From contig OY969569.1 of NCBI GenBank assembly GCA_963701185.1, positions 615,486 to 665,547 of the forward strand: DNA of 50,062 nt. The letters run 5' to 3'. Positions 6,001 through 24,352 of this stretch are shown piece after piece. How positions within the stretch are numbered: the stretch's first letter is position 1; each line of letters starts with the position of its first letter. The notes under the pieces were generated by a model that ran no database searches, was not told the origin of the DNA, and was given only the letters and a program-made list of their open reading frames with translations. The position numbers and the translations under genes were made by a program. This DNA comes from Candidatus Gottesmanbacteria bacterium. GTDB lineage: Bacteria > Patescibacteriota > Microgenomatia > UBA10105 > UBA927.

Positions 6001-7797
6001 CCCTGTTATGATTTTCTGCGTCCAGCTTGTTGATGAGTTAATAAGGGTTTGACTCAACCCCTCAAATGAATTATTTGCCGTTATTTTCTTTAACCAAACC
6101 GATGCAGTATACCAGGTTCCCACCACGGTTGTCGTATTTTGAAGAGCTATTCCATAGTTTGCTGCCCCGTTAGTAACTGATAAACTTTGAGAACCGCTTC
6201 CGCCCGTTCTTTCATCGGCTACTCCAGCAAGTGTAGCCGAGGCGGCAGCCGTCCAGTTATTAGGCGGATTTCCCGTTTCCATATCCCCATTTGTTAACAA
6301 CTCACTCCCCAGCGCTGGTGTAATCACGCCACTATTTGTCAGTGTTGAAACGCCGGAGACCAGGGTCGTCGGGGCGGCGGTGGTAAACTGGTCCAACAGG
6401 GTATTGGTATTCCACCCGCCGGTCGTAATATCCGTGTCAAAGGTGCCGTTGGTAAATTTATTGACGGAAGAGGCGCCGGGGACATCCAGCGTTGCTCCCG
6501 ATCCCGTCCACTTCATCGCCAGTTTGGCCGCATCGGCCGTATCCGTGAGTTTTAATCCTTCGACTCCGCTTGCGACTTTTGCGGCCATGTCCCCCACGAC
6601 GGTGAGGGTATTGGCGGGAGCCGTGGTCCCGATACCCACACGGGAGTTTGTGGTATCAAACGAGAGAATATTGGATATATTTTTGGTCGTGAGGACCGCC
6701 GTATCAACCAGGGTGAGATTGCCGGTTGTATCAACCGAGGCCACGATGGTCCCGTTATGGCCGTAGATGGTTAAGGGGGTATCCGTGACCGGGGCATTCA
6801 CGGCACCGGAATACCCCAAGACGATATCCCCATCCTCGTCCATCAGCGCTTTCTGATACCCGGCAATGGCAAACGCAAGGAGCTGTCCGTTGGCAACCGA
6901 CGTCGTCGGATTAATGAGGACCGATGCCTGGGCAAGCGTACTGTCGGTAGGCGCATACGTAAACGTGGTCTGGCCGGAAAAAATCTGGGACAAATTTGAG
7001 TGGAGATTTGCCACAAGCAGATTATCAAACCGTTTGCCCGCGGACCCCAAATCACTGCCCAAATCCGTATCAGGCAAGATGTCGTGCCCGTTGGTAATCG
7101 TCGCATTTCCGAAGGTGAGGGTATCCATCACGACGGCGTCCGTGGTTGTCGTTAACCCGACCGTGGTGCCGCTGTCGGTCCAGCCCGAAAGCGCGTAGTT
7201 GGGCGCTTCCATATTAATGGTTACGGTTTTCCCTGTCGCGTCGGTGGTGATGGTGACTGCCCCGCTTGCGGCCAAGGTCAGCGTATCGGTATTACTTCCG
7301 GCCGCGATACTGGTTTGGCCGGACACGGCGATGGTTTTAAAAATATTCTGGGCCGCGCCGGTATCGCTGTTGGTGATTTTTAATCCATCGACGGTCATGC
7401 CGCCTCCCGCAGTTAAGGATAAAGCACCGGTACTGCCCCCTAACGATACCACGCCTGTATTTGTTATGACGGGAGTCTGACCGGTAGAGACACTCACGCC
7501 TGTCCCGGCAGTTAATCCGTGGAGAATGTTTCCTGCCGTAATGGATGCAAATGATCCGGTACTTGCAGGAGCCTCGATATCCCCGGAGACGACCAGCCCG
7601 GTATCAAACGTTGCCGTGTCTTTAAACTCTGCCGGCACATGGACGGTGAAGATGAAACTGCCGGACCCGCTGGCAATGTTTTCACCTAAAACATTTACAG
7701 ACGGCAATGACGATCGGGTAAAACCTGCGATACCGGCGACGGCCAAAATAGCCACAAATGTCCCTATTTGTCCAAGTTTTGTTTGTAATAATTTCAT
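1..7797 (-). CDS. Giant membrane-anchored fibre/adhesin-like protein C with S74 chaperone domain; 3' end runs off the window; frame broken at about 4260, 4110 and 790 in this sequence
   Basis: ORF pieces 4258-7797, 4017-4289 and 427-4026, then an S74/C-terminal part in a shifted frame to base 1. N-terminal hydrophobic anchor (IGTFVAILAVAGIAGF) then VLG motif; repeated (G/R)VGIGTTAP motifs; paralogous end-to-end with the two upstream genes. Confidence 0.75.
221..1072. repeat. Near-identical repeat of 7967-8817
   Basis: Shadow ORFs 354-668 and 8100-8414 are identical (offset 7746); sequence match seen by eye. Confidence 0.85.
495..731 (-). other. Peptidase S74 intramolecular chaperone domain (copy C)
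   Basis: DNA near-identical to copy B, which reads WENTSSIALKENFTPVDPADLL..LPLTRWNYK..HIGPTAE..; Ser and Lys spaced S+5 as in S74 autocleavage dyads. End boundary approximate. Confidence 0.8.
3120..4075. repeat. Near-identical repeat of about 18976-19931; part also repeated at about 10890-11430
   Basis: Shadow ORF pairs 3229/19085 and 3538/19394 share offset 15856; the encoded segment DLTATRDTTIPYAG..TSKLQVTG is essentially identical. Confidence 0.85.
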
Positions 7798-10700
7798 GGT
7801 GCTGTCTCCCCTGAACCCGTAGATTCCACTGTATCAGAATTATCCGGCGCAAGCGCGACCCAATTGAACCGGTACTCGTGCAGTGCCCCATCCGGAACCG
7901 TGATGCGGAAACCTTTTTCGGTGACATTGGTGATGAATGCGTTCTGCCCCTCGGAGCCGACGCGTGAGAACGTCACGACCGGCGGGGTATCGTAGGACGC
8001 AGGAAAAACCACATCAACGGCGTTGGTATCCTTGGCGATAATCGCCTGGCCTGCCGTACTGTTGTTGAAGATCGCGACTCCTTTCATGATGAGGTTTTTA
8101 TGGAATATCACCGTATCAAAATATTCAACAAGAGATCGGAAGAGTGCAGGACCCTGAAACCCGACGCCGGCCTTAAACGTCACCGCTCCCGTTGCCTCCA
8201 GTTGGTTGAGAGAGGTCAGCACGGGGATCGTGTTTCCTTTGTCGATGAGTGCCTGGACTCCGGCCAGGGCAATACCCGCCGTATCCAGGGCGGCCAGGTG
8301 GGTGGCATCCTCCCCGACCCCGAAGATTTCGTAGAATTTCTCTGCCGTGGGGCCGATGTGGGTGACCGTATCCGGATTGGCTTTGTAGTTCCACCGGGTA
8401 AGGGGAAGGCGTGAAATCTTGGTCAAGAGATCCGCAGGATCCACGGGGGTGAAGTTCTCTTTCAGGGCGATACTGGAGGTATTCTCCCAGACCCCGACAT
8501 TGGAGAGGTAGGCGCCGGTGCCGGTATCGATGGGTTTGACGGAAGAGACTGCCGTGCCGATCCCCACGTTGCCGGCAAAGTAGGCACTGCCCGTACTCGT
8601 GAGACTCCCCAGGACTGCTCCGGTGCTTCCCTGCCATTCCTGCAGGTTGGCGGTTTGGGACAGGGATCCTTTGACAATGAGGCCCTGGAGGGTAGAAAGT
8701 CCTGTATTGAGGGTGGTGGTACTTTCCACCGTCAGCTGGCCTAACCCGGTCAGGCTGTTTTGGACGGAGAATGTCGAGGCGAGATCAGAACTGCCCAGCA
8801 AGGCCAGATTGTCCAGGTACACGGTTTTCCCGGCATGGACGTACACGCCGTAGGGTTTGGCACTTGCTACCCCCGTGACCGTTGCCTTCATCCGATACCA
8901 CCCGCCCCCGACAGCCGTGTACGTGGTGGGAAGGATATTCGGGCCTGCAGAGAGTTCAGCGTCTGCCGCCGTGACCGCGCTCCCGGTCGTATAGATGGCG
9001 GCGGTGAGCGTATACGTATTGGTGTCCCCCACGTTGACGCTTTGGGAAAATGCCCCGCCGCTTACTGCCACGATTTTTGTACTTGCCGGGCTGCCGCCGT
9101 ACGTTGTCGCCGTATCACTCGTCACCGTCAGATTCGTATCCGGGATATCCGTATACTCTCCTCCCGTCCCCCGGGCCCACAGGGTAAAGTTGTCAAACGT
9201 ATTGCCGGAGTATGTCGAAAAAAGACCGTGTTTGGTATTGGTGTTGGCCGTCATCGTTAACTCTGCTCCTACAAGAGCATTGTTGTAGTAGACCCGCAGT
9301 TTAGTGCCGTCCCGGACGGCCCGAAGCGTCGCTCCGGCGACATAGGTCACGGCCGTAGATTGTTTGTTGGTATATACTCCGGCGACGGCTTCATCAACTT
9401 TGACACTTGTCCCATCGTGATACACAATGATGAAGTTGGCAGGGCGGCGGTACTATCCAAATTTAGCACTAGTCCCGCCTGTGTTCCGGCAGTCATAGTT
9501 ACATTAGCATCCGCCACCACATTACTGGTTCGCTGCGGGGACTGAAGGAGAAAAGGGTGGAGAGGGTGATGGGTTTAATTGAAACATCGTCAAATTGTGC
9601 TGTGCCATTTGTACCATCCCTGAGATATATAGGTTGAGGAATGGAAATAGAACGGGCGGAACGAATTTTTTGTGTCCAAGTAGAAGATGTGTTGTCTAAA
9701 TATGGATCTCCGTTAAACACAAGACAGGCATTAGTTCCGTCATAGACTTCTATTCCATGCATTTATTTGATACCATGCTCCAACAACTGTTGTTATATTC
9801 TGGAATTCCCGCTTGGGGAGTTACTGTTCCCCCATAAGCAATTTGAAGAGATTGTGTTCCTGCGCACCAGTATGTTCCGCTACGGTGGTTAAGACAGCAT
9901 TTCTATCAGCAGTCCAGCTGCTTGGTGGGTTACCTGTTTCCATGTTCCCATTTGTTAACATCTCACTCCCCAATGTCGGTGTGATAGTCATTACTCCACC
10001 GGCTTTGGTGCCACCTGTCCAGTTGACAGTTGGGGGTGGTTTGGCCATCCGGCCCGGTGCGCTCGGTAACTGTGGCCATCGGCAGATGAAAAAGTATCAT
10101 AGGCCAGAGGTGTCGGCAGCCAGGTGGTGGTGGGGATACGGATGTTATCAGCGGTACAATGCTGCAGTAGCACCACTCCAAGCGCTTACACCTGGGTACA
10201 TTGTTGAGGTTGCAGCAGTGGACTGAATGTATACGAGAGTCCAGTTAGTGTACGCACCGCCTTTTATATAGTAATAGGCGCCATTAGTTCGTAAAACTAC
10301 AGCTATTTTGTAGTTCGTAGCATAACTAAATGCTCCCAAAGAGGAACTATTATTGCCATTATCCGTGGCATATAATACTTCCAGTTTCACTAAAATAAAT
10401 ACCATTGGCTTGGACTCGTCCTGCACTGGCCATCATCAAAACCTAGACCAATTCTTCCCGACGAAGCAATATTAATGTCCAGATAAGACTGTCCTTCCGG
10501 CAGATCTTGTTATACTGGGCCACCAAATACCGGGATTACCATCACCTACAGTTGATCCTGAAACAGACAACTGGCCACCTGTTATAGACAGTAGGGAGGT
10601 TGTATCCACCACTGTCCTTGTTCCCCCCGTGGGTTCAGCTTGGGTGCCGTTGACACTGCCTGCGGCCCGGTCGGTCGTAAACTGGTCCTCCAGTACGTTC

Positions 10701-13700
10701 CCGTAGTCCCAGGAGGAGATCCCGGCATCAAAGGTCGGATTGGTAAACTTGTTGCCCGAGGAACCCGAAGGGATATCAATGGAGGCCGCGGCATCAGCGG
10801 TATAGCGCAGGGCCAACTTCGAGATACCGCCGGAGATAATCTTCAACGCTTCCGCTCCGGCGGCAGATTCTGCGGCAATCGTACCGGTGACCTGCAATTT
10901 TGACGTGGGTGCCGTAGTGCCGATGCCCACCAGGCCGGACGCGGTGATGCGCATCTGTTCCGTGGACCCGTTGGTGGTGAAAAGAAGGGCATTGTTCGTT
11001 TGCATCGTCAGATTGGTGGTACCGGAGAGAGAGTTCGTCGTACCCAGGGTGAGGGTCCCGGCCGTGGAGGTGAGGGTGCCGGAGGCTTTGATATTCCCGG
11101 TGACATCCAACACTTCCGAAGGCGCGGTGGAACCGATCCCCACCCGCCCGTTGGTGGTATCAATATCCAGAACTGCAGTTCCTGCTGCATTGTTGAACTG
11201 ATAGGCTGTCGTGGTATTGGTAGACCGGGAGAAGGTTAATCCGCCGAGGGCATCCACGGCTCCCAGGACGGTTCCGGATGAGCTCTGCCACTCCTGAAGG
11301 TTGGCGGATTGTCCGGAGAAGCCTTTGACAACGAGGGCCGGGAGGGAAGCAAGACCGGAGTTGAGGGTGGAGGTGGATTCCACACTCAGGCCTCCCAGAC
11401 CCGTGGTGGAGTTGGTAATGGCCAGGGTGGTATTAGGACCGCTTGTTGCATATAACGCGAAACTGTCAATATAGACGGTTTTGCCTGCATGAACTGACAC
11501 GCCGTAATTTTTGGCAGAGGCCACACCCGTCAGCGTTCCGGTTAACCGGTACCAGCCGCTGCCGACGGATGTAAATGTTGTGGCAATGGCCGACCCGTCG
11601 TAAAACAGATCCAGATCCGCAGTTGTCACGGCACTCCCGTCGGTGTAGGCGTAGGCGCTTACTGTATATACTGATGTGTCCGGCAATGTCACGGATTGGG
11701 CGTAGGCATTGTCGTTGGTGCCGGCAACCAGTTTGAGCGAGGCGGTTCCGGCATAGTGGACGGAGGTGTCCCGGGTGGCCGTAAGGCCCGTATCCGGAAT
11801 ATTTATATACTCATTCCCCGTCCCGCGGGCAAAGAGAGTGAAGTTGTCAAACGTGTTGCCAGAGTAGGTAGAGAATAATCCGTGTATGGTATTGGTGTTG
11901 GCCGTCATGGTTAATTCAGATCCGACCAGGGCATTGTTGTAATACACTCGTAGTTTGGTTCCTTCTCTAATGGCTCGGAGTGTGGCCCCAGCACTATATG
12001 TTACTGTCGTTGTTTGTTTGTTGGTATATACTCCGGCTACTGCCTCATCAACTAATACCTGCGTGCCATTATGGTATACCAGGATAAAGTTTGCCGGACT
12101 ACTTGTGGAATCTAAATTTAATACTAACCCAGCCTGAGTTCCTGCAGTTAAAGTTACATTTACATCAGCCACCACATTGGCAGTATTGGCTGGCACAGTG
12201 GAGAAGAGGGAGGAGAGGGTGAGGGGCGTAACTGATACATCGTCTGTTCTGGTCTCTTGGCCTAACGTTGACGACTGACTTTCTAGTTGTATATAATTGG
12301 TAGTTGAAAGTGAACGCCTTACTCCTAGTCCATAGGTCCATGATGTGCTGGCGATATTTGCAAATGTGAACCAATTTGTTCCGTCATAATAACGCAAAGC
12401 CATTGATGGAGCATTTATATTTTTAGCCCATCCAGATGCTTGATACCATGTTCCGTTTGATACAGATAACGTTTCTCTAGCGCTTGGATAATTACCGCCA
12501 TTATGGATAATTGACATTGATTTCGTCCCACTACCTCCAGTTCTTTCATCATTTACGCTAGATAGTGTGGCAAGATTGAGAACTGCCCAACCAGAAGGAG
12601 GATCACCAGTTTCCATATTCCCATTTGTCACCATCTCACTCCCCAATGTCGGTGTGATACTCAGAACTCCTCCCGCCACGGTTCCGCCGGTGAGGGCGAG
12701 GGCGGGGGTCGTTTGGGAATCAGGCCCGCTGGTTTCCGTCGTCGTTGCCCCCGGGGTGCCAAAAGTTGAGTATGCCAGGGGAGTAGGTAGCCAGGTGGTG
12801 GTGGGGATGCGGATGTTATCAGAGGTAAAGGCGCCATCATAATTTCCAATTGTGGGGTAAAGAGTACTTGTTGAATCTTCATTCCCTGTCCACAAGAGAG
12901 TCCAGTTAGTATATGCCCCACCTTTAATAAAGGTGAAACTACCAGTGCTTCGTAAAACAGTAGCAATGTTGTAAGTACTGTTTGAATAACTTCCAATACT
13001 TTCAGATGCATCGTGACCTGCAAATATTGTATTACTTGAGTGAAATGTCACGTAAGAATCTGAAGATAACTGAAAACCGTAATTTGGAGCTGAATTCGTT
13101 TTAAAACCGATTCTCTTGAACGTCCCTGTGTTAGGTGTTATTTGACTTACCATCATTTTGCCGGCAGATCTGGTTACTGAACCGTAGCGTATTCCCGGGT
13201 CGGCGTATCCACTTAATCCACCAGAAAAATTTAATACTCCACTTCCAATACTAACTTTGTTTGTGCTATCCACAACAGTTCTCACTCCTCCCGTCGGTTC
13301 GGCCGAAGTGCCGTCAAGGTTGGTGGTGATGAGGAAGTTGGTAAAGCTATTACTTGCGTACGTACTAAATAATCCCTGCAACGTGTTGTTGACAATACCT
13401 GCATCAGAAATCGTTTGATCAGCTCCGATTTGCGCGCCGTTGTAGATGAGTTTATAGACATTCCCTACTTTCGCTACTTTCAGCGTCGCTCCGGCAACAT
13501 AGGCAGCGGCGGTGTTAATGAGGGAGGTATATGTCCCCCCCACATTTTTATCCAGGTGAACACTGGTTCCGTCATGGTAGGCAATGACAAAGTTGGCGGG
13601 AGTACTGGCTGAATCCAGATTAAGAACCAGTCCTGCCTGTGTTCCTGCCGTCAGCGTCACCCCGGCAGAAATAATCTTATTCACCGTCGCCTCGGTGACT

Positions 13701-15875
13701 GTCGAGAAGAGGGAGGAGAGAGTGAGGGGTTTGACACTAAGATTATCAATCTCCATTAAATCACCCGCATTATTACCAACATAAATTCTAAGATTGGGAC
13801 CAGTTGCAGTTGTTCGGCCGGAAACGGTGAAATTAGCCCACAAACTACTTGTTGCGGGATATAGAGCAGGAACCATGTTCCCCCCATATATACCTGATGA
13901 AGAATGTCCCGTCCATTTTGCTGCGTAAGTTAGCATGAACCAAGTATTAGCTGTTGTTGTCCATGCCCAATATGCACTTCCACTCACACCTGACCCCGGA
14001 TAGGCAAGACGTATATTGTATGAACCGGTGTTTGGTGCACTTGCATCAGATGATAGTGTTGGAGCGGGAGACCCTTGAGAAAACCATCCGGTTGTTGCAT
14101 TTGCTTCATTTCCATTTGGATCGGAAGCTGCATTTGCGGTAGTATAAAATTCACTCCCCAGCGTTGGGGTAATCACGCCACTATTTGTCAGTGTTGAAAC
14201 GCCGGAGACCAGGGTCGTCGGGGCGGAGGTCGTGAATTGGTCATTGAGAGTGTAGCCGTTCCAGCCGGTCAGGTCGATTTCAAAACCGGTATTAGTCATG
14301 GTACTGGCAGACATATCAAGGGTTACCCCGGTACCCGTCCACTTCATCGCCAATTTGGCCGCATCGGCCGTATCCGTGAGTTTTAATCCTTCGACTCCGC
14401 TTGCGACTTTTGCGGCCATGTCCCCCACGACGGTGAGGGTATTGGCGGGAGCCGTGGTCCCGATACCCACACGGGAGTTTGTGGTATCAAACGAGAGAAT
14501 ATTGGATATATTTTTGGTCGTGAGGACCGCCGTATCAACCAGGGTGAGATTGCCGGTTGTATCAACCGAGGCCACGATGGTCCCGTTATGGCCGTAGATG
14601 GTTAAGGGGGTATCCGTGACCGGGGCATTCACGGCACCGGAATACCCCAAGACGATATCCCCATCCTCGTCCATCAGCGCTTTCTGATATCCGGCAATGG
14701 CAAAACCCAACAATTGGCCGTTGGCAACCGACGTCGTCGGATTAATGAGGACCGTTGCCTGGGTATTCGTTGTATCGGTGGGCGCATAGGAGAAGGTGGT
14801 CTGGCCGGAAAAAGCCTGGGAGGAATTGGAATTGATATTGGCAACCCACACGTTATCAAACCGCAGGGCATTGGACCCCAAATCACTGCCCAAATCCGTC
14901 CCGGGAAGAAGGGATTTTCCGTTGGTAATCGTCGCGTTTCCGAAGGTGAGGGTATCCATCACCACCGTGTCCGTGGTTGTCGTTAACCCGACCGTGGTTC
15001 CGGTTTTTGTCCAACCGGAGAGGGTGTAATCCGGGGTATCGGCATTGATGGTGAGCGTTTTCCCTGTTGCATCGGTGGTGAGGGTAATGCCCCCGCTTTG
15101 GACAACGGTGAGGGTGTCGGTATTACTTCCGGCGGCAACACTGGTTTGGCCGGATACCGCGATGGTTTTAAAGATATTCTGGGAGGTTCCCCGATCGCTG
15201 TTGGTCACTTTCAACCCGTCGACGGTCATGCCGCCTCCTGCAGTCAGGGAGAGGGCGCCGGTTGAGCCGCCCAGAGACAGGACACCGGTGTTGGTTACCG
15301 TCGGAGTCTGGCCGGTGGAGACACTCATCCCCGTTCCTGCCGTCAGTCCATAGAGGATATTGCCTGCCGTGACCCGGGAAAATGATCGCGGAGCTCTGGG
15401 CAGCCTGAACATCTCCGGAGATGATCAACCCGGTATCAAACGTTGCCGTGTCTTTAAACTCTGCCGGCACATGGACGGTGAAGATGAAACTGCCGGACCC
15501 GCTGGCAACGGTGTCGCCGAGGACCGTTGCGGGGGTTTCGACCGGGGGGATAGTATGTTTTATTCGTATCATCCCTCCACCAAGGAAGAGTAAAACAAGA
15601 CCAAGGGAAACAAGAATCACCTTTGTCATTCCCGGCTTGACCGGGAATCCGCCTTCTGTTTTCTTTACAACCAATACCGATCCCCGCCTTCGCGGGGATG
15701 ACAAACCGTGCGAGGCAGAATTTCTGAGTTCTTCGATCTGCTCCGGGGTATACCGGCGCTGGTTGCCGAAAGTCCGCTGCGGGATGACCCGCCCCGCCTC
15801 TTCCCACCTCCGAAGGGTTTTTGTGGAGATGCCGAGGATCCGCGCCGCATCGTAGATCGATAAAAGTTTTGTCAT
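7794..15875 (-). CDS. Giant protein B: MerR-HTH, TM, fibre/adhesin-like repeats, S74 chaperone; frame broken at about 15387 and repeatedly in 9425-10480
   Basis: ORF pieces 15168-15875, 10472-15412, 10148-10426, 9821-10048, 9499-9762 and 7794-9425 are collinear with the paralogues; total span 8082 nt is a multiple of 3; ATGA overlaps at both ends. Confidence 0.72.
8240..8477 (-). other. Peptidase S74 intramolecular chaperone domain (copy B)
   Basis: WENTSSIALKENFTPVDPADLLTKISRLPLTRWNYKANPDTVTHIGPTAEKFYEIFG. End boundary approximate. Confidence 0.82.
15009..15837. repeat. Near-identical repeat of 22149-22977 (MerR-HTH to start of fibre)
   Basis: Offset 7140 throughout, with only scattered substitutions. 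Confidence 0.9.
15390..15875 (-). other. MerR-type HTH plus TM N-terminal segment of giant protein B
   Basis: LLSIYDAARILGISTKTLRRWEEAGRVIPQRTFGNQRRYTPEQIEEL, then TM VILVSLGLVLLFLGGGMI and VLG motif. Confidence 0.85.
15624..15703 (-). repeat. TGTC-tagged REP doublet (80 bp) in frame inside giant gene B
   Basis: Minus strand TGTC-ATCCCCGC(GAAG)GCGGGGAT-spacer-ATTCCCGG(TCAAG)CCGGGAAT-GACA; translated as LSSPRRRGSVLVVKKTEGGFPVKPGMT. Confidence 0.9.
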
Positions 15876-18800
15876 GGAGTGCCTCCGAAGGGCGAAATAC
15901 TTTTTGTTGTCTTCATATCCGCAACCGCTACCGCGTTCCAGTTGTACAAATACTCCTGCATTGCGACGTCGGGGATAACGATGCGGAATCCTTTTTCCGA
16001 AACATTGGTCAAGTACGCCTTGTGTCCGTCCGAATCAATCGGTGAGAATGTCACGACGGGAGGCGTGTCATACGGCACGGCAAATGTCACATCAACCTGA
16101 CTTGTTGCCGTCGCCATTTTCGCCTGACCGACGGAATCTTTGTTAAATGACGGCGTCCCCTCAATGGTTACATTTTTGTCATAGGTCACCGCACTAAAGT
16201 ACTCAGTTAACGCCCGGAAAACCGCGGAACCGATAAATTCCGCATCCGCCCGGAACGTCACCGCTCCCGTTGCCTCCAGTTGGTTGAGAGAGGTCAGCAC
16301 GGGGATCGTGTTTCCTTTGTCGATGAGTGCCTGGACTCCGGCCAGGGCAATACCCGCCGTATCCAGGGCGGCCAGGTGGGTGGCATCCTCCCCGACCCCG
16401 AAGATTTCGTAGAATTTCTCTGCCGTGGGGCCGATGTGGGTGACCGTATCCGGATTGGCTTTGTAGTTCCACCGGGTAAGGGGAAGGCGTGCAATCTTGG
16501 TCAAGAGATCCGCAGGATCCACGGGGGTGAAGTTCTCTTTCAGGGCGATACTGGAGGTATTCTCCCAGACCCCGACATTGGAGAGGTAGGCTCCGGTGCC
16601 GGTATCGATGGGTTTGGTCGCAGAGACTGCCGTCCCGATCCCCACGTTGCCGGCAAAGTAGGCACTGCCCGTACTCGTGAGACTCCCCAGGACTGCTCCG
16701 GTGCTTCCCTGCCATTCCTGCAGGTTGGCGGTTTGGGACAGGGATCCTTTGACAATGAGGCCCTGGAGAGACGCAAGACCGGAGTTGAGGGTAGTTGTGG
16801 ATTCTACCGCCAACTGCCCCAGTCCCGTGAGGGTGTTTTGGATAGCAAGAGATGTGGTGGAAGAATCGGGAATGAGGGCAAAATCATCCAGGTACACGGT
16901 TTTCCCGGCATGGACGTACACGCCGTAGGCGCGGGCTGTCGCGACGCCAGTCACGGCGGCCTTTGCTCTATACCACCCGCCCCCGACAGCCGTGTACGTG
17001 GTGGGAAGCGGGCTTGCGCCGGCATACATCTGTGCGTCCGCCGACGTGACGGCACTCCCGTCCGTGTATATGACGGCGGTGAGACCATACGTATTGGTGT
17101 CCCCCACGTTGACGCTTTGGGAAAATGCCCCGCCGCTTACTGCCACGATTTTTGTTGACCCCGCCGAGTTTCCGTATGTCGTTGTCGTATCCCGCGTCAC
17201 CGTCAGATTCGTATCCGGGATATCCGTATACTCTCCTCCGGTCCCCCTTGCAAACAGCGTAAAGTTGTCAAAGGTGTTACCGGAGTAGGTAGAGAACAGA
17301 CCGTGTTTGGTGTTAGATATTATTCCTGCATCGGATACTGTCTGTTCCGTGCCAATCAAAACATTGTTGTAGTACACCCGCACTTTCAGGGCTCCTCCGG
17401 AAGTGGAGGTGATCACTCTCAAAGTAGCTCCTGCCGAATAAGTAGCTGCTGTATTTATTAAAGATGTATATGTTCCCCCAACATTTTTATCCAGTTTGAC
17501 ATTGGTTCCGTCATGGTAGGCAATCAGGAAGTTGGCAGGAGAGCTTGTTGAATCCAAATTCGTTACCAGTCCTGCCTGAGTCCCAGCCGTCAAAGTCACA
17601 TTAGCATCGGCAACGACATCAGTATCAGAGGTGGGGACAGTGGAGAAGAGAGAGGAGAGGGTAAGTTGTTTAAAAGAAGCATCGTCAACTATCACCGCAT
17701 CAAAATTTGAAGTGCCTCTTTCTTGAGCAGGATAAAAATTGGTTGAGTTTCCAGCTGTCCGGCCGGTTTTTAAATATTGGGTATATGAAGATGCTGTGAT
17801 GTACCCCAAAGTTGTTGTCCCCACTGTTAATTCTGTCACATCTGCGGATACTGTCCCGCCGGAACCGGAAGTCCTTTTAGCCCACACATATCCCTGCCAC
17901 CATCCCGCGGTTGGAGAAAAGGCGGGAAATCTAAGACCGTTCCATTGGGCAACTCCTGTAAAAGCTTGGGCTTTGCTTCCCCCATGGACATCCGCACTTT
18001 GAGAAACTGTTGGGCTTCCGATTTTGGTGAGGTTGTCATTTAAACCGCTGGTGTAGTTTCCCTCTAACCCCGGATCGGTTAAAATTTCAGCTCCTGTTGT
18101 GGGGGTAATCACCACTTTATTTCCACTTATTGCCCCTCCTGTCCAGGCTAAAGAGGGTGTAGTTTGGGAGTCCGGGCCGGTGGTTTCGGAAGATCCAATC
18201 GCCCCATCCCCACGGGTAAACGTATCATATGCCAGCGGTGTCGGGAGCCAGGTGGAGGTAGGGATTTTAATATAATCAAATGAACTAGCTAGATTATTAG
18301 TAAATATACTTGGGGTTAGTGAGGCATTTGTTCCAATGTCTGATTTCCAAATAAACGTCCAATTTCCGGAAGTGGGTTTAAAAAATAAATAAGCACCAGT
18401 CGAACGCAATATTATAACCACTGTGCCGCTCTGGCCATCATAAAAAGATATTTGTGGAAAGCCCCCACTCCAACCTTTTAATTTATTGTCGATAATATAA
18501 CTTTGATATCCATTTGTGGCGTTCCATCCGGCAACATAATAATTTGCAGGACTACCGTTACTAAAAGTGGGGAATATCAACATTTTTCCAGCAGCCCTGG
18601 TAACCGATGGGTATGTTATCGTTGGATTACCTGTTGTGCCTCCCGTTGCGAAACTCAACTGTCCGCCGGTAATACTTAACTTGCTATTGGTATCCACCAC
18701 CGTTCTTATTCCCCCCGTGGGTTCCGCTTGGGTACCGTTGACGGCTCCGGCGGCGCGGTCAGTGGTGAACTGGTCCTCCAAAGCATTGCCATAATCCCAC

Positions 18801-21800
18801 CCGGTTAAATTCGATTCAAACGTATAATTGGTGAATTTATTCGCGGAACTTACGGATTGCACATCAATAAATCCTGTGGAACCGGCTCCATACCCCAATG
18901 CCAGCGTATTGTTTCCGGAAAGAATTTTTAGCGCGGCGGCCCCGGCTCCCGCCTCTGCAGCTATCGTTCCCGTCACCTGCAATTTTGACGTGGGTGCCGT
19001 AGTGCCGATCCCCACCAGGCCGGACGCGGTGATGCGCATCTGTTCCGTGGACCCGTTGGTGGTGAAAAGAAGGGCATTGTTCGTTTGCATCGTCAGATTG
19101 GTGGTACCGGAGAGAGAGTTCGTCGTCCCCAGGGTGAGGGTCCCGGCCGTGGAGGTGAGGGTGCCGGAGGCTTTGATATTCCCGGTGACATCCAACACTT
19201 CCGAAGGCGCGGTGGAACCGATCCCCACCCGCCCGTTGGTGGTATCAATATCCAGAACTGCAGTTCCTGCTGCATTGTTGAACTGATAGGCTGTCGTGGT
19301 ATTGGTAGACCGGGAGAAGGTTAATCCGCCGAGGGCATCCACGGCTCCCAGGACGGTTCCGGATGAGCTCTGCCACTCCTGAAGGTTGGCGGATTGTCCG
19401 GAGAAGCCTTTGACAACGAGGGCCGGGAGGGAAGCAAGACCGGAGTTGAGGGTGGAGGTGGATTCCACACTCAGGCCTCCCAGACCCGTGGTGGAGTTGG
19501 TAATGGCCAGGGTGGTACCGGCGCCGGAGGAACTGAAGAGGGCCAGATTATCCACGTAGACGGTCTTCCCTGCTTTGACCCGGACCCCGTAGTTTTTGGC
19601 ACTTGTCACCCCGGTGAGAGTGGAGGAGAGTTTGTACCAGCCATTGCCCGCGGACGTATAGGTGGTGGTCAGGGCGGTGGCGGACACATCACTGAAGAGC
19701 TCGACATCCGCCGAGGTGACCGCCGCACCGGTCGTATATGCGTAGGCGGTGAGGTTGTAGGAAGACGTATCCGGCAGGGTGACACGTTGGGTGTAGGCAT
19801 TGTCGTTGGTGCCGGCAACCAGTTTGAGCGAGGCGGTTCCGGCATATGGTATGGTTGTATCGCGTGTTGCCGTCAGATCCACATCCGGCAGCCCGGTGGT
19901 ATATTCCCCTCCCGTCCCCCGGGCAAAGAGGGTAAAGTTGTCAAAGGTGTTACCGGAGTAAGTGGAGAAGAGTCCGTGGAGGGTGTTGTTGATTATCCCT
20001 GCATCCGTGACTGTTTGCTCAGTTCCAACCAATGCGTTGTTGTAATACACTCTGACTTTTAGAGTATTAGCATCGGAGTGGTAGGTGATGACTCTTAGGG
20101 TTGCTCCTGCCGAATAAGTAGCCGCCGTATTTATCAAACTGGTATATGTTCCCCCAACATTTTTATCCAGTTTGACATTGGTTCCGTCATGGTAGGCAAT
20201 CAGGAAGTTGGCAGGAGAGCTTGTTGAATCCAAATTCGTTACCAGTCCTGCCTGAGTCCCAGCAGTCATAGTTACATTCACATCCGCAATCACATCAGCA
20301 TCAGAAGTGGGTACTGTGGAGAAAAGGGAGGAGAGGGTAAGAGGTCTATATGAAATATTGTCGATTGTTCCGTTCCAAGAATTGGAATAAACGCCTATGC
20401 TAGTTTGACTAGCTCTTAATGTATTTGTATAAGAGCCAGGCGTGTTTCGAGCAATAGTGTTTGCACCCGCGTATGTCCATATGAATTGCCCTACTTCTAA
20501 TACTAAATCAAAACCAGCTTGGTACCAATTATTAATAGTCCCAACTGATTGCGTTAGAAGACCAGCATTCCCGTTGTTGGATGCAACTCCACCTGAAATC
20601 GTCCACCCAGTTCCTTTAGCCCAGCTCGTATCAGTGTCAAAAGTGCCATTGATAATAACATCACTTCCCAGTGTCGGGGTGATAGTCATTACTCCACCGG
20701 CTTTGGTGCCACCCGTCCAGGTTAATTGGGGAGTAGTTTGAGAATCCGGGCCAGTGGTTTCGGTAGCGGTTGCCCCGGCAGTAGTAAACGTATCATATGC
20801 CAGAGGGGTGGGGAGCCAGGTGGAGGTGGGGATACGGATGTTGTCAATATTGAGGTCGTAATTACCAGTTACCCCAGCATATAAATTGGAAGTGTTGCCT
20901 ATAAAATCAGTATATAATAATGTCCAATTAGGATATTCTGTTCCGCCCTTTATAACAAAATATGTACCTGAACTTTTTAGAATTACCGCTAATTTATAAG
21001 TAACATTAAAAGTATATGTTCCTAGAGGAGTAGCATTGGCTGTTTGAATCACGCTTGAGTTGCCACGTAAATAAAAACCGCTTTGCAAGGTATTGGATTG
21101 AGCCGTAGTAAATCCAATCTTTACATCTTTAAAAGCAGAAACAAGTTCTTTATAATCAAAAATTGCTATCTTTCCAGCTGCTCTTGTTGTGACTGGATAC
21201 CATAACCCGGGATCACCCAGCCCTACTCCACCAGTTGCAAAGACTGCTACACCACCAGAAATTGACAGCTTGGAGTTGGTATCCACCACCGTTCTCACCC
21301 CTCCCGTGGGTTCGGCGGGGGTGCCGTTGACACTGCCGGCTGCACGGGCGGTGGTAAACTGGTCCAACAGGGTATTGGTGTTCCACCCGCCGGTCGTAAT
21401 ATCCGTGTCAAAGGTGCCGTTGGTCAGCTTGTTGACGGATGCGGCTCCCGGGACATCCAGTGTTGCTCCCGATCCCGTCCACTTCATCGCCAGTTTGGTC
21501 GCATCAGACGTATCCGTAAGTTTAAGACCCTCGACTCCGCTTGCGACTTTTGCGGCCATGTCCCCCACGACGGTGAGGGTAGTGGCGGGAGCCGTAGTCC
21601 CGATACCCACACGGGAGTTTGTGGTATCCAGAGAGAGAATATTGGATATATTTTTGGTCGTGAGGACCGCCGTATCAACCAGGGTGAGATTGCCGGTTGT
21701 ATCAACCGAGGCCACGATGGTTCCGTTATGGCCGTAGATAGTTAAGGGGGTATCCGTGACCGGAGCATTCACGGCATCCGAATACCCCAAGACGATATCC

Positions 21801-23030
21801 CCATCCTCGTCCATCAGCGCTTTCTGATATCCGGCAATGGCAAACGCAAGGAGCTGTCCGTTAGCAGTCGAGGTGGTGGGATTGATAATCACCGACGCCT
21901 GCGAGAGTGTCGTATCGGTGGGCGCATAGGAGAAGGTGGTCTGGCCGGAAAAAGCCTGGGAGGAATTGGAATTGATATTGGCAACCCAGAGATTATTAAA
22001 CCGTTTGCCCGCGGACCCCAAATCACTGCCCAAATCCGTATCAGGCAGAAGATTATGGCCATTGGTAATGGTTGCACCCCCGAACGTGATTCCGTCTACC
22101 ACGACCGCATCCGTCAGTGTCGTGAGACCCACGCTGGTACCGCCGTCTGTCCAACCGGAGAGGGTGTAATCCGGGGTATCGGCATTGATGGTGAGCGTTT
22201 TCCCTGTTGCGTCGGTGGTGAGGGTAATGCCCCCGCTTTGGACAACGGTGAGGGTGTCGGTATTACTTCCGGCGGCAACACTGGTTTGGCCGGACACGGC
22301 GATGGTTTTAAAGATATTCTGGGAGGTTCCCCGATCGCTGTTGGTCACTTTCAACCCGTCGACGGTCATGCCGCCTCCTGCAGTCAGGGAGAGGGCGCCG
22401 GTTGAGCCGCCCAGAGACAGGACACCGGTGTTGGTTACCGTCGGAGTCTGGCCGGTGGAGACACTCATCCCCGTTCCTGCCGTCAGTCCATAGAGGATAT
22501 TGCCTGCCGTGACCCGGGAAAATGATTGCGGAGCTCTGGGCAGCCTGAACATCTCCGGAGATGATCAACCCGGTATCAAACGTTGCCGTGTCTTTAAACT
22601 CTGCCGGCACATGGACGGTGAAGATGAAACTGCCGGACCCGCTGGCAACGGTGTCGCCGAGGACCGTTGCGGGGGTTTCGACCGGGGGGATAGTATGTTT
22701 TATTCGTATCATCCCTCCACCAAGGAAGAGTAAAACAAGACCAAGGGAAACAAGAATCACCTTTGTCATTCCCGGCTTGACCGGGAATCCGCCTTCTGTT
22801 TTCTTTACAACCAATACCGATCCCCGCCTTCGCGGGGATGACAAACCGTGCGAGGCAGAATTTCTGAGTTCTTCGATCTGCTCCGGGGTATACCGGCGCT
22901 GGTTGCCGAAGGTCCGCTGCGGGATGACCCGCCCCGCCTCTTCCCACCTCCGAAGGGTTTTTGTGGAGATGCCGAGGGTTTCGGCGGCATCCTGAATGGA
23001 GAGAAGCGTATCGACAGTATATGAATTCAT
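15872..23030 (-). CDS. Giant protein A: MerR-HTH, TM, fibre/adhesin-like repeats, S74 chaperone (about 2385 aa if the single +1 break near 22527 is removed)
   Basis: ORF 22308-23030 (HTH, TM) overlaps ORF 15872-22552 (2226 aa, intact); the junction aligns to the unbroken N-terminus of paralogue C. Confidence 0.8.
16320..16555 (-). other. Peptidase S74 intramolecular chaperone domain (copy A)
   Basis: WENTSSIALKENFTPVDPADLLTKIARLPLTRWNYK..HIGPTAEKF. End boundary approximate. Confidence 0.82.
22530..23030 (-). other. MerR-type HTH plus TM N-terminal segment of giant protein A
   Basis: LLSIQDAAETLGISTKTLRRWEEAGRVIPQRTFGNQRRY, then the same TM helix as copy B. Confidence 0.85.
22764..22843 (-). 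repeat. TGTC-tagged REP doublet (80 bp) in frame inside giant gene A
   Basis: Same sequence as 15624-15703. Confidence 0.9.
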
Positions 23031-23068
23031 TTATTATAATAAGAAAAAATCCGTATATTTTCAGTTAA

Positions 23069-23920
<852 letters not shown>

Positions 23921-23926
23921 TCTTTG

Positions 23927-24002
23927 TGTCATTCCCGCGTAGGCGGGAATCGGTATTGGTTTTATTGAAGAAGGCGGATTCCCGGTCAAGCCGGAAATGA
24001 CA
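23927..24002 (+). repeat. TGTC-tagged REP doublet (76 bp)
   Basis: TGTC-ATTCCCGC(GTAG)GCGGGAAT-CGGTATTGGTTTTATTGAAGAAGGCGG-ATTCCCGG(TCAAG)CCGGAAAT-GACA. Confidence 0.9.
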
Positions 24003-24010
24003 AGAAAATC

Positions 24011-24352
24011 ATGCTCCGTCATTATTATGTATACATAATGGCAAATAATAGACCGACGTTATATGTCGGTGTAACAAATAGTATTGAAAGAAGATCAGTT
24101 CAACATAAATATAAATTTATCGATGGGTTTACAAAAAAATATAATCTTTCAAAACTTGTATATTTTGAACATTATACTGATGTAAAAGAAGCGATCAAAC
24201 GGGAAAAACAATTGAAACATTGGAATCGGAGTTGGAAATTAAATTTGATACAAAAGATGAATCCTGCATTTGAGGATTTATATGATAAGCTGATATTAGG
24301 CGGGATAAAACAGAAGGCGGATCCCCGCCTTCGCGGGGATGACAAGCAATAA
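24011..24352 (+). CDS. GIY-YIG nuclease family protein (small stand-alone UPF0213-like type)
   Basis: YYVYIMAN..TLYVGVTNSIERR..QHK..FTKKYNLSKLVYFE..AIKREKQLKHWNRSWKLNLIQKMNP; the last codons DPRLRGDDK are the REP hairpin. Confidence 0.9.
   Translation: MLRHYYVYIMANNRPTLYVGVTNSIERRSVQHKYKFIDGFTKKYNLSKLVYFEHYTDVKEAIKREKQLKHWNRSWKLNLIQKMNPAFEDLYDKLILGGIKQKADPRLRGDDKQ
24307..24344 (+). repeat. Single REP hairpin with linker at right end of the GIY-YIG cassette
   Basis: AAAACAGAAGGCGG-ATCCCCGC(CTTC)GCGGGGAT-GACA. Confidence 0.88.

What the first reader, a model, noticed from the sequence alone, without database searches (positions are those of the whole stretch)
22490..23030. MerR-type HTH tethered by one TM helix to a giant extracellular fibre
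Seen: two of the three genes start HTH, linker, TM, VLG motif and continue into sequence homologous to the N-terminus of HTH-less gene C (ASGSGSFIFTVHVPAEFKDTATFDTGL). Known: MerR HTHs bind DNA, and ToxR-like one-component regulators couple a cytoplasmic HTH to an outside sensor. Inference: a contact-sensing or nucleoid-tethering adhesin whose attachment state could regulate the divergent promoters at 23031-23160. A TGTCA-CT-TGACA palindrome at 23121-23132 overlaps the -35 box.
Basis: partly seen in the sequence, partly recalled or inferred. Interest (0 to 1): 0.7.

Follow-up and report, generated by a model that had tools for sequence, protein, structure and literature searches.

The report
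Giant surface fibre carrying its own DNA-binding head
A giant cell-surface fibre of an uncultured groundwater bacterium (Patescibacteria) starts with a small DNA-binding domain held inside the cell by one membrane helix; dozens of related species share this design together with a matching DNA motif at the gene's own promoter, so the fibre probably regulates itself, though in this sequence one extra base breaks the reading frame.

Summary
In this window, however, the HTH ORFs (23030..22308 and 15875..15168) are not in frame with the fibre ORFs. One extra base near 22528, and at the same place in copy B, shifts the frame by +1.

The fusion itself is real. In 53 of 54 related loci the HTH and the fibre N-terminus share one frame with no stop. 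ORFs run from 500 to more than 3600 aa, and one intact 2063-aa relative has MerR + TM + Peptidase_S74.

The HTH is a minimal BldC/RacA/Xis-like winged helix with no MerR dimerisation helix. An 11-nt motif, AAACTTGGACA, is about 50-fold enriched just upstream of these genes. It occurs as direct repeats 10, 21 or 32 nt apart or as convergent pairs. It also lies upstream of the conserved divergent ATP-synthase cluster. The window carries it at 23099-23119.

Best reading: a membrane-tethered autoregulator fused to a trimeric surface fibre. Contact sensing is untested. The linker is an in-frame 84-bp MITE. I found no published description. This is a new variant of transmembrane transcription regulators.

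The parts
22308..23030 (-). Gene A, first ORF as it stands (240 aa): HTH, linker, TM helix, conserved ecto-N-terminus, then about 70 out-of-frame codons and a stop
22860..23006 (-). MerR/BldC-like winged HTH of gene A (aa 9-57)
   Evidence: Pfam MerR 43.4 bits, MerR_1 42.6, HTH_17 34.4. AF2 pLDDT is above 90 for residues 10-60. Foldseek best matches are RacA, BldC and Xis.
22762..22845 (.). 84-bp MITE-like palindromic element (two hairpins, terminal inverted repeat TTTGTCATTCCCG/CGGGGATGACAAA), read through in frame as 28 codons. It makes up most of the HTH-TM linker.
   Evidence: Other copies lie at 15622-15705, 23924-24004, 24320-24343 and about 34090-34150. Contigs of run X1 carry it in other contexts.
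22707..22763 (-). Single transmembrane helix (aa 90-108), signal-anchor type, N-terminus inside
   Evidence: KD 19-mer mean 2.25. One TM helix sits at aa 80-220 in nearly all relatives.
22533..22661 (-). Conserved extracellular N-terminal module (VLG...FxVNVP...F), shared with gene C
22524..22532 (-). Frame break: one extra nucleotide (about 22528) relative to paralog C. A +1 shift is needed to continue into the fibre ORF.
   Evidence: The same break lies at about 15384-15392 in copy B.
15872..22552 (-). Gene A fibre ORF (2226 aa, uninterrupted), +1 frame relative to the HTH ORF. Peptidase_S74 is at aa 2000-2051 (16400-16555).
15168..15875 (-). Gene B first ORF (235 aa): the same HTH, MITE linker, TM helix and N-terminus, with the same frame break. 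Its start overlaps the end of gene A.
   Evidence: No promoter-like site precedes it.
7794..15412 (-). Gene B fibre body, broken into pieces: 15412..10472, several frame changes in 10472-9425, then 9425..7794 with Peptidase_S74
4258..7797 (-). Gene C: HTH-less paralog with its own N-terminal TM anchor and the same ecto-N-terminus in frame. It has further frame breaks downstream (4258-4026 and about 427).
23099..23119 (-). Candidate operator: direct repeat AAACTTACCC + AAACTTGGACA (10-nt period), lying between the two divergent -35 boxes
23120..23133 (.). Palindrome ATGTCA-CT-TGACAT overlapping the -35 TTGACA (23127-23132) of the + strand promoter-like site (-10 AATGAT, 23150-23155)
   Evidence: The nearest relative, L003, has a similar TTGTCA-ATGA-TGACAA next to its TTGGACA palindrome.
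23162..23920 (+). Divergent first gene of the ATP-synthase cluster: signal peptide, ectodomain and a C-terminal two-helix hairpin. It is followed by alpha, gamma and beta subunits.
   Evidence: A homolog lies divergent to the HTH gene in 62 of 75 loci.
7769..7779 (-). Second exact copy of AAACTTGGACA, inside codons 7-10 of gene C
   Evidence: About 0.02 exact 11-mers are expected in the window.

Best explanation
Genes A and B belong to a widespread family in Patescibacteria, mostly Microgenomates. Its members are giant single-pass (type II) membrane proteins.

Anatomy. The N-terminus is a cytoplasmic, minimal MerR-like winged HTH of the BldC/RacA/Xis kind. It has no coiled-coil dimerisation helix and no effector domain. 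A variable linker follows; here it consists of an 84-bp MITE read in frame. Then come one TM helix and a 2-3.6-kaa extracellular fibre. In this lineage the fibre ends in a Peptidase_S74 intramolecular-chaperone domain, which in known proteins marks trimeric fibres.

Proposed mechanism. The HTH most likely binds the 11-nt AAACTTGGACA sites found at the gene's own promoter. These occur as direct repeats on one face of the helix or as convergent pairs. The same sites occur at the promoter of the conserved divergent ATP-synthase cluster. The fibre protein would therefore be a membrane-tethered transcription regulator of itself. It is most probably a repressor giving copy-number feedback for a very costly protein, because in most relatives the sites cover about +2 to +40 after the -10 box. 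It may also couple ATP-synthase expression to the fibre.

What is shown and what is inferred. Shown: the architecture, its conservation, the motif and where it sits. Inferred: that this HTH binds that motif, the sign of regulation, and trimer-phased binding.

This window. One extra base separates the HTH-TM stub from the fibre in both copies. This is most likely an assembly or sequence error in a repeat, or a very recent mutation spread by gene conversion. It is not an evolved split.
For: Architecture:
- Fourteen divergent homologs (31-42% identity) cover 93-97% of an HTH+TM+fibre-N-terminus query as single proteins.
- In species-representative genomes, 53 of 54 loci with both parts have them in one frame without a stop. 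ORFs from the HTH run 500 to more than 3600 aa, with one TM helix at aa 80-220.
- Intact examples: L018 at 2063 aa with MerR + TM + Peptidase_S74, and L039, L058 and L077 at 1876-3516 aa.
- There are 169 representatives at E<=1e-10, many of 1400-3400 aa with the HTH at the N-terminus.

DNA-binding competence:
- The HTH is far more conserved than the rest of the protein (STKTLRRWE..G..P.RT.GNQRRY).
- The AF2 model is confident for residues 10-60 and shows no long helix afterwards.
- Fold and sequence matches include BldC 6AMA/6AMK (34% identity, rmsd 1.6 A), RacA 5I44 and Xis 4J2N.
- BldC contact residues Lys26, Arg30 and His46 (PMC5859096) align with K24, R28 and Q/H44.

Operator:
- TT[GA]GACA occurs 117 times in -100..0 and 37 times in -200..-100 across 75 loci. 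That is 15.6 per kb in the -100..0 bin against about 0.3 per kb background. 68 of 75 loci have at least one site.
- Flanks extend the motif to AAAcTTGGACA.
- Direct-repeat spacings peak at 10 nt (15 cases), 20-22 nt (7) and 32 nt (8). Convergent pairs are 17-20 nt apart.
- Where a clean TTGACA promoter is seen, the sites start +2 to +27 after the -10 box.
- A motif-first scan of metagenomes returned 53 loci. Twelve carry this HTH gene, and in 11 of them it lies 49-88 nt downstream on the same strand.
- L018 has both a divergent recognition helix and divergent repeats.

Link to the ATP-synthase cluster:
- The cluster is divergent to the HTH gene in 62 of 75 loci.
- Sites lie upstream of it in 17 of 39 loci with a long intergenic region, against 4.75% background, and in 23 of 23 loci with a short shared intergenic region.

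This window:
- The exact 11-mer lies at 23099-23109, 69-79 nt upstream of the ATG.
- The fibre ORF stays open for 2226 codons after the break.
Against: - No experiment or read data exist. Binding of this HTH to the motif rests on co-occurrence, and another factor could bind it.
- The motif resembles a -35 box (TTGACA plus one G), which confounded my promoter finder.
- In the window and in its nearest relative, L003, the sites lie upstream of the candidate -35 box rather than downstream. The sign of regulation may therefore differ here.
- In this window the protein as encoded is a 240-aa stub, and all three fibre genes carry frame breaks. The locus could be decaying.
- The break is not at a homopolymer, so a simple homopolymer error does not explain it.
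- Trimerisation is inferred only from what is known of S74 domains.
Confidence: 0.6

Rival explanations
1. In this genome the split is real. A and B each encode a 240-aa HTH-TM stub that may still act as a small membrane-bound regulator. Downstream lies a fibre ORF with no start codon or signal sequence, so it is silent or a pseudogene. The three tandem fibre genes would then be a decaying or recombining cassette array.
For: - The same extra base occurs in both copies, with a neighbouring SNP, and not in a homopolymer.
- Further frame breaks occur in B and C, while the other genes examined, the ATP-synthase subunits and ten housekeeping genes downstream, gave full-length family matches.
- Short HTH-TM proteins followed by a separate giant gene with its own TM helix exist in relatives, for example L004 at 720 aa and L081 at 348 aa.
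Against: - The 70-codon tail after the break is Arg/Pro-rich junk, not an evolved end.
- The fibre frame stays open for 2226 codons, which is unlikely for an old pseudogene.
- There is no slippery or hungry-codon context for programmed +1 frameshifting.
- Breaks confined to highly repeated DNA are what unpolished repeats in an assembly look like.
- No reads were available to decide.
Confidence: 0.3
2. Attachment of the fibre to a host cell changes the state of the cytoplasmic HTH, through oligomerisation or regulated proteolysis that releases it. That in turn switches the divergent promoters.
For: - The topology matches ToxR/CadC-type one-component regulators.
- Operator-like sites lie between the divergent promoters.
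- The ATP-synthase promoter is also marked by sites in relatives.
- These bacteria are thought to live attached to hosts (general knowledge).
Against: - Nothing in the sequence shows a signal-transmitting element or a site for intramembrane cleavage.
- A single TM helix and a poorly conserved, disordered linker of 25-150 aa (here a MITE) are poor transmitters of conformational change.
- Ectodomains differ widely among relatives (S74 fibre, GDSL lipase, Peptidase_G2, intein) while the HTH and the motif stay constant. This argues for a ligand-independent role of the HTH.
Confidence: 0.15
3. The role is architectural tethering rather than transcription control. The membrane-anchored HTH pins its own locus and the adjacent ATP-synthase operon to the membrane. 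This would resemble RacA, or 'transertion', and would help co-translational insertion of a giant membrane protein and of the ATP synthase.
For: - RacA, a chromosome anchor, is the top fold match.
- BldC and Xis relatives form architectural filaments on direct repeats (PMC5859096).
- Site arrays of up to 6 copies occur.
- Synteny with an operon for membrane proteins is conserved.
Against: - The sites sit exactly on the transcription start region, where binding would be expected to affect transcription.
- There is no independent evidence for transertion in these organisms.
- Tethering and repression are not mutually exclusive.
Confidence: 0.12
4. The fusion is an artefact. On this view a small Xis/MerR-type gene and a fibre gene, possibly of prophage origin, were joined only because a stop-free MITE or a misassembly bridges them.
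For: - The linker is a mobile palindromic repeat that also occurs in intergenic DNA.
- S74 domains and Xis-like HTHs are common in phages.
Against: - Relatives without the MITE keep the HTH, linker, TM helix and fibre in one ORF in 53 of 54 loci from many independent assemblies.
- The locus is chromosomal with conserved synteny to the ATP-synthase cluster and housekeeping neighbours.
Confidence: 0.02

Closest known systems
BldC of Streptomyces (BldC family of minimal MerR-like wHTH proteins; PDB 6AMA, 6AMK; PMC5859096)
   Same: - Same fold, 34% identity over 47 residues, rmsd about 1.6 A.
- No coiled-coil dimerisation helix and no effector domain.
- The contact residues Lys26, Arg30 and His46 are conserved as K24, R28 and Q/H44.
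- Candidate sites are A-rich plus a specific core, arranged as variable numbers of direct repeats with helical phasing, as for BldC.
   Different: - BldC is a free 68-aa cytoplasmic protein. Here the domain is the N-terminus of a 2-3.6-kaa membrane protein.
- The NCBIfam HTH_BldC score is 30.7 bits against a cut-off of 77.
- The motif differs: AAACTTGGACA against AATTnnnnC.
ToxR/CadC/TcpP-type transmembrane transcription regulators (TTRs; census in PMC10269533)
   Same: - N-terminal cytoplasmic DNA-binding domain, one TM helix, and an extracytoplasmic C-terminal part.
- It meets the census definition of a DNA-binding domain plus at least one TM helix.
- TTRs with a MerR, MerR_1 or HTH_17 domain are listed there as a minor class: 386, 350 and 151 of about 50,000.
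   Different: - The DNA-binding domain is MerR/BldC-like, not OmpR-type.
- The outside part is a giant structural fibre with an autoproteolytic S74 chaperone, not a small sensor domain.
- Neither Peptidase_S74 nor Patescibacteria appears in that census.
RacA of Bacillus subtilis (chromosome-anchoring MerR-like wHTH; PDB 5I44)
   Same: It is the best Foldseek match. It is a MerR-like wHTH whose job is to hold DNA at the cell envelope.
   Different: RacA is soluble, is anchored through DivIVA, and binds GC-rich inverted repeats as a symmetric dimer (PMC5859096 discussion). Sequence similarity is weak (E 0.26).
Phage tail fibres/tailspikes and endosialidases with a C-terminal Peptidase_S74 intramolecular chaperone
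   Same: - Pfam Peptidase_S74 scores above its cut-off in A (35.8 bits) and in the B tail (37.5 bits).
- The fibre has repetitive, Gly/Thr-rich sequence.
- The SSIALKEN motif resembles the Ser-Lys cleavage motif as I recall it from these proteins.
   Different: - This is a chromosomal cellular gene with an N-terminal membrane anchor and a cytoplasmic HTH.
- About 175 residues (weak H_lectin match) follow the S74 domain.
- It is not in a prophage context.
Classical MerR-family regulators (MerR, CueR, SoxR, BmrR)
   Same: The HTH plus wing is recognised by Pfam MerR and MerR_1.
   Different: There is no antiparallel coiled coil and no effector domain. The sites are not a palindrome inside a 19-20-bp promoter spacer.

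Membership tests
MerR superfamily HTH (Pfam PF00376/PF13411/PF12728) | Score above the curated cut-off for the N-terminal HTH plus wing | tested here: met
   MerR scores 43.4 bits (cut-off 28.2), MerR_1 42.6 (21.6) and HTH_17 34.4 (27). The same holds in relatives.
Classical MerR-family regulator | Long antiparallel coiled-coil dimerisation helix after the wHTH | tested here: not met
   The AF2 model has a confident wHTH at residues 10-60, then a low-confidence linker and the TM helix. The alignment shows a variable linker.
Classical MerR-family regulator | C-terminal effector-binding domain | tested here: not met
   The HTH is followed by a linker, a TM helix and the fibre. No such domain is found in Pfam.
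Classical MerR-family regulator | Palindromic operator inside an over-long (19-20 bp) -35/-10 spacer | tested here: not met
   In most relatives the sites are direct repeats or convergent pairs downstream of the -10 box. In the window they lie between the divergent -35 boxes. Spacers are 16-18 nt.
BldC family (NCBIfam NF033787) | Score above the family cut-off; a small stand-alone protein | tested here: not met
   The score is 30.7 bits against a cut-off of 77. The protein is giant and membrane-bound.
BldC family (mode of action) | Head-to-tail binding of monomers to direct repeats | not testable with these tools
   The data are only consistent with this: repeat spacings of 10, 21 and 32 nt and conserved contact residues.
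Transmembrane transcription regulators (definition of PMC10269533) | A DNA-binding domain and at least one TM region in one protein | tested here: met
   This is met in relatives as full proteins. In the window it is met by the 240-aa ORF as it stands.
Transmembrane transcription regulators | Regulates transcription while in the membrane | not testable with these tools
   Inferred from the conserved sites at the promoter.
Peptidase_S74 (intramolecular chaperone of fibres) | Pfam score above the cut-off near the C-terminus | tested here: met
   Gene A scores 35.8 bits at aa 2000-2051, ORF 9425..7794 scores 37.5 bits (cut-off 22), and L018 scores 25.4 bits.
Peptidase_S74 | Autocleavage and trimer formation | not testable with these tools
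   Only the SSIALKEN motif is seen. Its match to the catalytic Ser-Lys motif rests on my memory of the family.
Programmed +1 ribosomal frameshift site | Slippery P-site codon followed by a stop or rare codon in the 0 frame, at a conserved site | tested here: not met
   The break lies in TCC GCA/GCG ATC. The 0 frame runs on for 70 sense codons. Relatives are in frame at this position.

The most novel reading that the evidence does not exclude
A giant structural adhesin acts as its own transcription factor, possibly in cis and co-translationally. The HTH emerges first from the ribosome. While the remaining 2-3.6 kaa are still being made, it sits on the operator about 100 bp upstream of its own codons. 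Later, three HTHs of a trimeric fibre read phased repeats from the membrane. Through the shared motif, fibre number or engagement would also set expression of the ATP-synthase operon. Host attachment would then be linked directly to energy metabolism in ultra-small episymbiotic bacteria.
Probability: 0.15. Interest if true: 0.9.

Novelty: new variant of a known kind. Interest (0 to 1): 0.72.

Why it matters
Patescibacteria (CPR) make up a large share of bacterial diversity. They are mostly uncultured, have tiny genomes and few recognisable regulators, and depend on surface contact with hosts.

This work points to a conserved design in which the largest surface protein of the cell carries a DNA-binding head. 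That head matches a sharply defined motif at the protein's own promoter and at the ATP-synthase promoter. The result is a concrete regulatory circuit that can be tested in vitro in organisms where almost none is known.

It also extends two known groups. Transmembrane transcription regulators gain a member whose outside part is a giant structural protein. The BldC type of minimal MerR domain gains a membrane-bound form. There is a practical point as well: these genes break most short-read assemblies and are annotated only as 'MerR family regulator, partial' or left unnamed.

Tried and rejected
**Read-level check of the frame break.** It was not possible. The exact protein is not on record. Two runs hold only crumbs of the region, mostly the MITE. 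No run was found for a unique 8-kb part of the window.

**Programmed frameshifting or transcriptional slippage.** Rejected. There is no slippery site, no nearby 0-frame stop and no long homopolymer, and relatives are in frame.

**A methylation-motif (GATC) basecalling error.** It could explain the break in copy B and the A/G SNP. The other breaks in gene C are not at GATC, so I left this as a mere possibility.

**Fusion created by the MITE.** Rejected.

**Prophage tail fibre plus excisionase.** Rejected, because of the conserved chromosomal synteny and housekeeping neighbours.

**The 5' region as a known RNA element.** No Rfam family was found in six relatives. The motif's sequence is conserved rather than covarying, and it occurs as direct repeats.

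**A simple sigma-70 scan to place sites relative to promoters.** It is only partly usable, because TTGGACA and TTAGACA mimic TTGACA.

**The non-HTH hits of the motif-first scan.** They look like chance in a very large collection. L089, for example, is an (ACTTGGACAA)n microsatellite.

**Literature searches.** Searches on MerR, TM, giant proteins, Patescibacteria and S74 found no description of this family.

**Source names.** None exist for five giant relatives.
Full report
**1. What is in the window**

On the minus strand, an ORF runs from 23030 to 22308 (240 aa). Its parts are:
- Residues 9-57 match Pfam MerR, MerR_1 and HTH_17, all above their cut-offs.
- Residues 58-89 form a linker.
- Residues 90-108 (KVILVSLGLVLLFLGGGMI) are the only strongly hydrophobic stretch (Kyte-Doolittle mean 2.25).
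- Then come ATVLGDT and ASGSGSFIFTVHVPAEFKDTATFDTGL. The latter is identical in the HTH-less gene C, 7797..4258.

A second copy, B, starts at 15875, overlapping the stop of gene A. Between 22299 and 22977 it differs from A at 2 of 679 positions. The palindrome TGTCA-CT-TGACA is at 23121-23132 and overlaps a TTGACA-17-AATGAT promoter-like site that faces the + strand gene starting at 23162.

**2.

The HTH ORFs do not continue into the fibres. The giant ORFs (22552..15872, 2226 aa; 15412..10472, 1646 aa) are in the +1 frame. After the conserved N-terminal module the HTH frame runs through about 70 Arg/Pro-rich nonsense codons to a stop.

Aligning A, B and the in-frame paralog C localises a single extra nucleotide. 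The sequences read CCGCAATC in A, CCGCGATC in B and CCG-GATC in C, at about 22528. Removing it gives ...SSGSFSRVTAGN..., collinear with ...STGSFASITAGN... in C.

- The site is not a homopolymer and has no slippery or hungry-codon context. Relatives are in frame here. Programmed frameshifting is therefore unlikely.
- The fibre frame remains open for 2226 codons, which argues against an old pseudogene.
- Genes B and C carry further frame changes (9425-10472, 4026-4258, about 427). In contrast, the ATP-synthase subunits and ten housekeeping genes downstream that I scanned gave full-length family matches.
- The whole 23-kb region is made of long repeats at 90-100% identity.

I could not obtain reads. 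Whether the break is an assembly or polishing error in repeats, or a recent mutation copied between A and B, stays open. I give about 0.3 to a real split.

**3. The linker is a mobile element**

Positions 22762-22845 are an 84-bp element. It has a terminal inverted repeat (TTTGTCATTCCCG/CGGGGATGACAAA) and two internal hairpins. Other copies are:
- in gene B;
- in intergenic DNA at 23924-24004;
- partly at 24320-24343, next to a small ORF that looks like a GIY-YIG nuclease by eye (no Pfam or NCBIfam match);
- at about 34090-34150;
- in other contexts in an unrelated groundwater run.

In A and B it is read through as 28 codons (LSSPRRRGSVLVVKKTEGGFPVKPGMTK). This supplies almost the whole linker and its positive charges. 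It did not create the fusion, as section 4 shows.

**4. The fusion is real and widespread**

A search with the repaired N-terminus found 14 proteins at 31-42% identity that cover 93-97% of the query. Each has a MerR HTH, a variable linker, a TM helix and the fibre N-terminus in one chain.

In one-genome-per-species contigs I obtained 79 loci. Most are Levy-, Ames-, Shapiro-, Davies-, Woese- and Chisholmbacteria or are labelled 'Patescibacteria group'.
- 54 loci have both an HTH hit and a fibre-N-terminus hit. In 53 of these the two are in the same frame with no stop between them. The exception has a run of N.
- ORFs starting at the HTH run 500 to more than 3600 aa. Most reach the contig end, because the repetitive gene breaks assemblies.
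- Nearly all have one TM helix at aa 80-220.
- L018 is complete: 2063 aa with MerR (37-73), TM (121-139) and Peptidase_S74 (1759-1809). L039, L058 and L077 are complete at 1876, 3516 and 3340 aa.

An exhaustive HMMER search gave 169 cluster representatives at E<=1e-10, many of 1400-3400 aa with the HTH at the N-terminus. Some have two tandem HTHs. Some have other outside domains: GDSL lipase, Peptidase_G2 chaperone, or an intein. The 'HTH + TM' head is therefore a module placed on various giant surface proteins.

**5. What kind of HTH**

AlphaFold gives a confident winged HTH for residues 10-60 (pLDDT 88-95). Only low-confidence linker follows, and there is no MerR-type coiled coil.
- Foldseek's best PDB matches are RacA-DNA (5I44), BldC-DNA (6AMA/6AMK; 34% identity, rmsd 1.5-1.6 A, TM-score on the target 0.70-0.75), GlnR/TnrA and mycobacteriophage Xis (4J2N). 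Classical MerR proteins come after these.
- Sequence search of the PDB gives BrlR, BldC and CueR.
- NCBIfam's BldC model scores 30.7 bits, below its cut-off.
- The residues that contact DNA in BldC are Lys26 and Arg30 on the recognition helix and His46 in the wing (PMC5859096). They align with K24 (at least 90% conserved), R28 (invariant) and Q/H44.
- Across all loci the HTH is far better conserved than anything else in the protein.

**6. A matching cis element**

Reading the upstream regions of the 75 loci with an identifiable start showed an obvious repeated word.
- TT[GA]GACA occurs 117 times in -100..0 and 37 times in -200..-100 relative to the ATG. The density is 15.6 per kb in the -100..0 bin, against about 0.3 per kb elsewhere in 1 Mb of flanks.
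- 68 of 75 loci have 1-6 copies.
- Flanks extend the motif to AAAcTTGGACA.
- Same-strand neighbours are 10 nt apart (15 cases), 20-22 nt (7) or 32 nt (8), that is, on one face of the helix. Convergent pairs are 17-20 nt apart.
- Where an unambiguous TTGACA promoter is present, the first site begins +2 to +27 after the -10 box.
- No Rfam family matches. Conservation of the word itself, including as direct repeats, fits a protein site better than an RNA stem.

Two further tests bear on this.
- A search that started from the motif (ACTTGGACAAACTTRGACA) in the metagenome collection returned 53 loci. Twelve contain this HTH gene, and in 11 of them it lies 49-88 nt downstream on the same strand. The rest look like chance in a huge collection.
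- L018 has an unusual recognition helix (SADTLRNWE) and also unusual repeats (ACTTAGGAA twice, and TCCCAAGTT). This is one case of co-variation.

In the window the exact 11-mer occurs twice, where about 0.02 is expected.
- One copy is at 23099-23109, preceded by a degenerate repeat AAACTTACCC exactly 10 nt upstream (23110-23119). Both sit between the two divergent -35 boxes.
- The other is at 7769-7779, inside the first codons of gene C.

It has a counterpart in the nearest relative, L003. On its own, however, it is not statistically remarkable.

**7. The neighbour**

The divergent gene (23162-23920) encodes a signal peptide, an ectodomain and a C-terminal two-helix hairpin. It heads the ATP-synthase alpha/gamma/beta cluster.
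- A homolog lies divergent to the HTH gene in 62 of 75 loci, 120-1900 nt away.
- Where the two starts are more than 450 nt apart, 17 of 39 loci have the motif within 250 nt upstream of that gene, against a 4.75% background. It often appears there as a TTGGACA-N12-17-TGTCCAA pair.
- Where the intergenic region is short and shared, 23 of 23 loci have the motif.

The idea that the HTH acts on both divergent promoters therefore has comparative support.

**8. Mechanism**

- Shown: the domain order, its conservation, the HTH fold class, the motif, its phasing and its position, and the synteny.
- Inferred: the N-terminus is cytoplasmic. There is no signal peptide before a folded 60-aa domain, and the helix acts as a signal anchor. 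The HTH binds the AAACTTGGACA sites as monomers side by side, in the manner of BldC or Xis.
- Inferred: binding over the start region represses the gene. The amount of fibre in the membrane would then feed back on the synthesis of a very expensive protein.
- From established knowledge: S74 domains are known from trimeric fibres. A fibre would thus present three HTHs, which would suit the 2-3 phased sites seen in most loci.
- In the window and in L003 the sites lie upstream of the -35 boxes, so the sign of regulation there is uncertain.

Contact sensing, release by proteolysis, and locus tethering or transertion remain possible but have no direct support. The variety of ectodomains on a constant head argues that the HTH's role does not depend on a particular ligand.

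**9. Comparison and novelty**

Functionally this is a single-pass transmembrane transcription regulator. The census of such proteins lists MerR, MerR_1 and HTH_17 among minor DNA-binding domains (386, 350 and 151 of about 50,000). It contains no Peptidase_S74 and no Patescibacteria.
- The DNA-binding head works like BldC but fails that family's score cut-off and is not a free protein.
- It is not a classical MerR regulator. The dimerisation helix, effector domain and spacer operator were all tested and none is met.

I found no paper describing a giant fibre with such a head, the TTGGACA motif, or the link to the ATP-synthase cluster. Public records leave these proteins unnamed or call them 'MerR family ... 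partial'. I rate it a new variant of a known kind.

**10. Verdict**

The architecture and likely promoter binding are supported. Contact sensing is untested.
- Interest: 0.72.

Noticed in passing
window 22762-22845, 15622-15705, 23924-24004, 24320-24343, about 34090-34150: A family of about 84-bp MITE-like palindromic elements (two GC hairpins, terminal inverted repeats). Copies occur in coding DNA, where they are read in frame, and in intergenic DNA. One full and one partial copy flank a small ORF at 24011-24352 that looks like a GIY-YIG nuclease by eye (no Pfam or NCBIfam hit). That ORF is inserted between the first gene of the ATP-synthase cluster and the alpha subunit.
   Followed up: partly
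window 23162-23920; homologs in 64 of 75 related loci (e.g. L002 8280-9089): The first gene of the ATP-synthase cluster encodes a signal peptide, an ectodomain of about 170 aa, and a C-terminal two-helix hairpin (…GRNPLAAK…) that reminds me of an F0 c subunit. It has no Pfam or NCBIfam match. In this window I did not find recognisable a, b or delta subunits between it and alpha.
   Followed up: partly
related loci L001-L081, 1-15 nt upstream of the HTH gene start codon: CTGCC(C) lies immediately before the ATG in 40 of 75 loci, against 0.4% background. It stands where a Shine-Dalgarno sequence would be but does not resemble one. It is absent in the window and in L003. Its function is unknown.
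   Followed up: partly
window 7769-7779 (start of gene C): An exact AAACTTGGACA lies inside codons 7-10 of the HTH-less paralog C. The start of gene C overlaps the stop of the gene B tail (ATGA). This may be a remnant of a former 5' UTR operator, or an internal regulatory site.
   Followed up: no
window 427-15412: Fibre genes B and C are broken by several frame changes (10472-9425, 4258-4026, about 427), all within a mosaic of repeats 90-100% identical among A, B and C. Only A keeps a 2226-codon open frame. This could reflect assembly error in repeats, decay, or cassette-like recombination among the three tandem genes.
   Followed up: partly
proteins P0078, P0080, P0084, P0087, P0072, P0074: Some giant relatives carry two tandem MerR HTHs at the N-terminus. 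Their other outside domains include GDSL lipase, Peptidase_G2 chaperone and an intein. A few proteins (P0072, 623 aa; P0074, 1015 aa) show up to 8 HTH-like stretches.
   Followed up: partly
related loci generally: In most short-read assemblies the contig ends inside this gene: 60 of the 75 HTH ORFs run off the end of the DNA held, most often at a contig end. The family is therefore systematically truncated and under-annotated in public genomes.
   Followed up: no
L089 290-340: An unrelated contig carries an (ACTTGGACAA)n microsatellite next to other short tandem repeats. This is a chance match to the motif search.
   Followed up: yes
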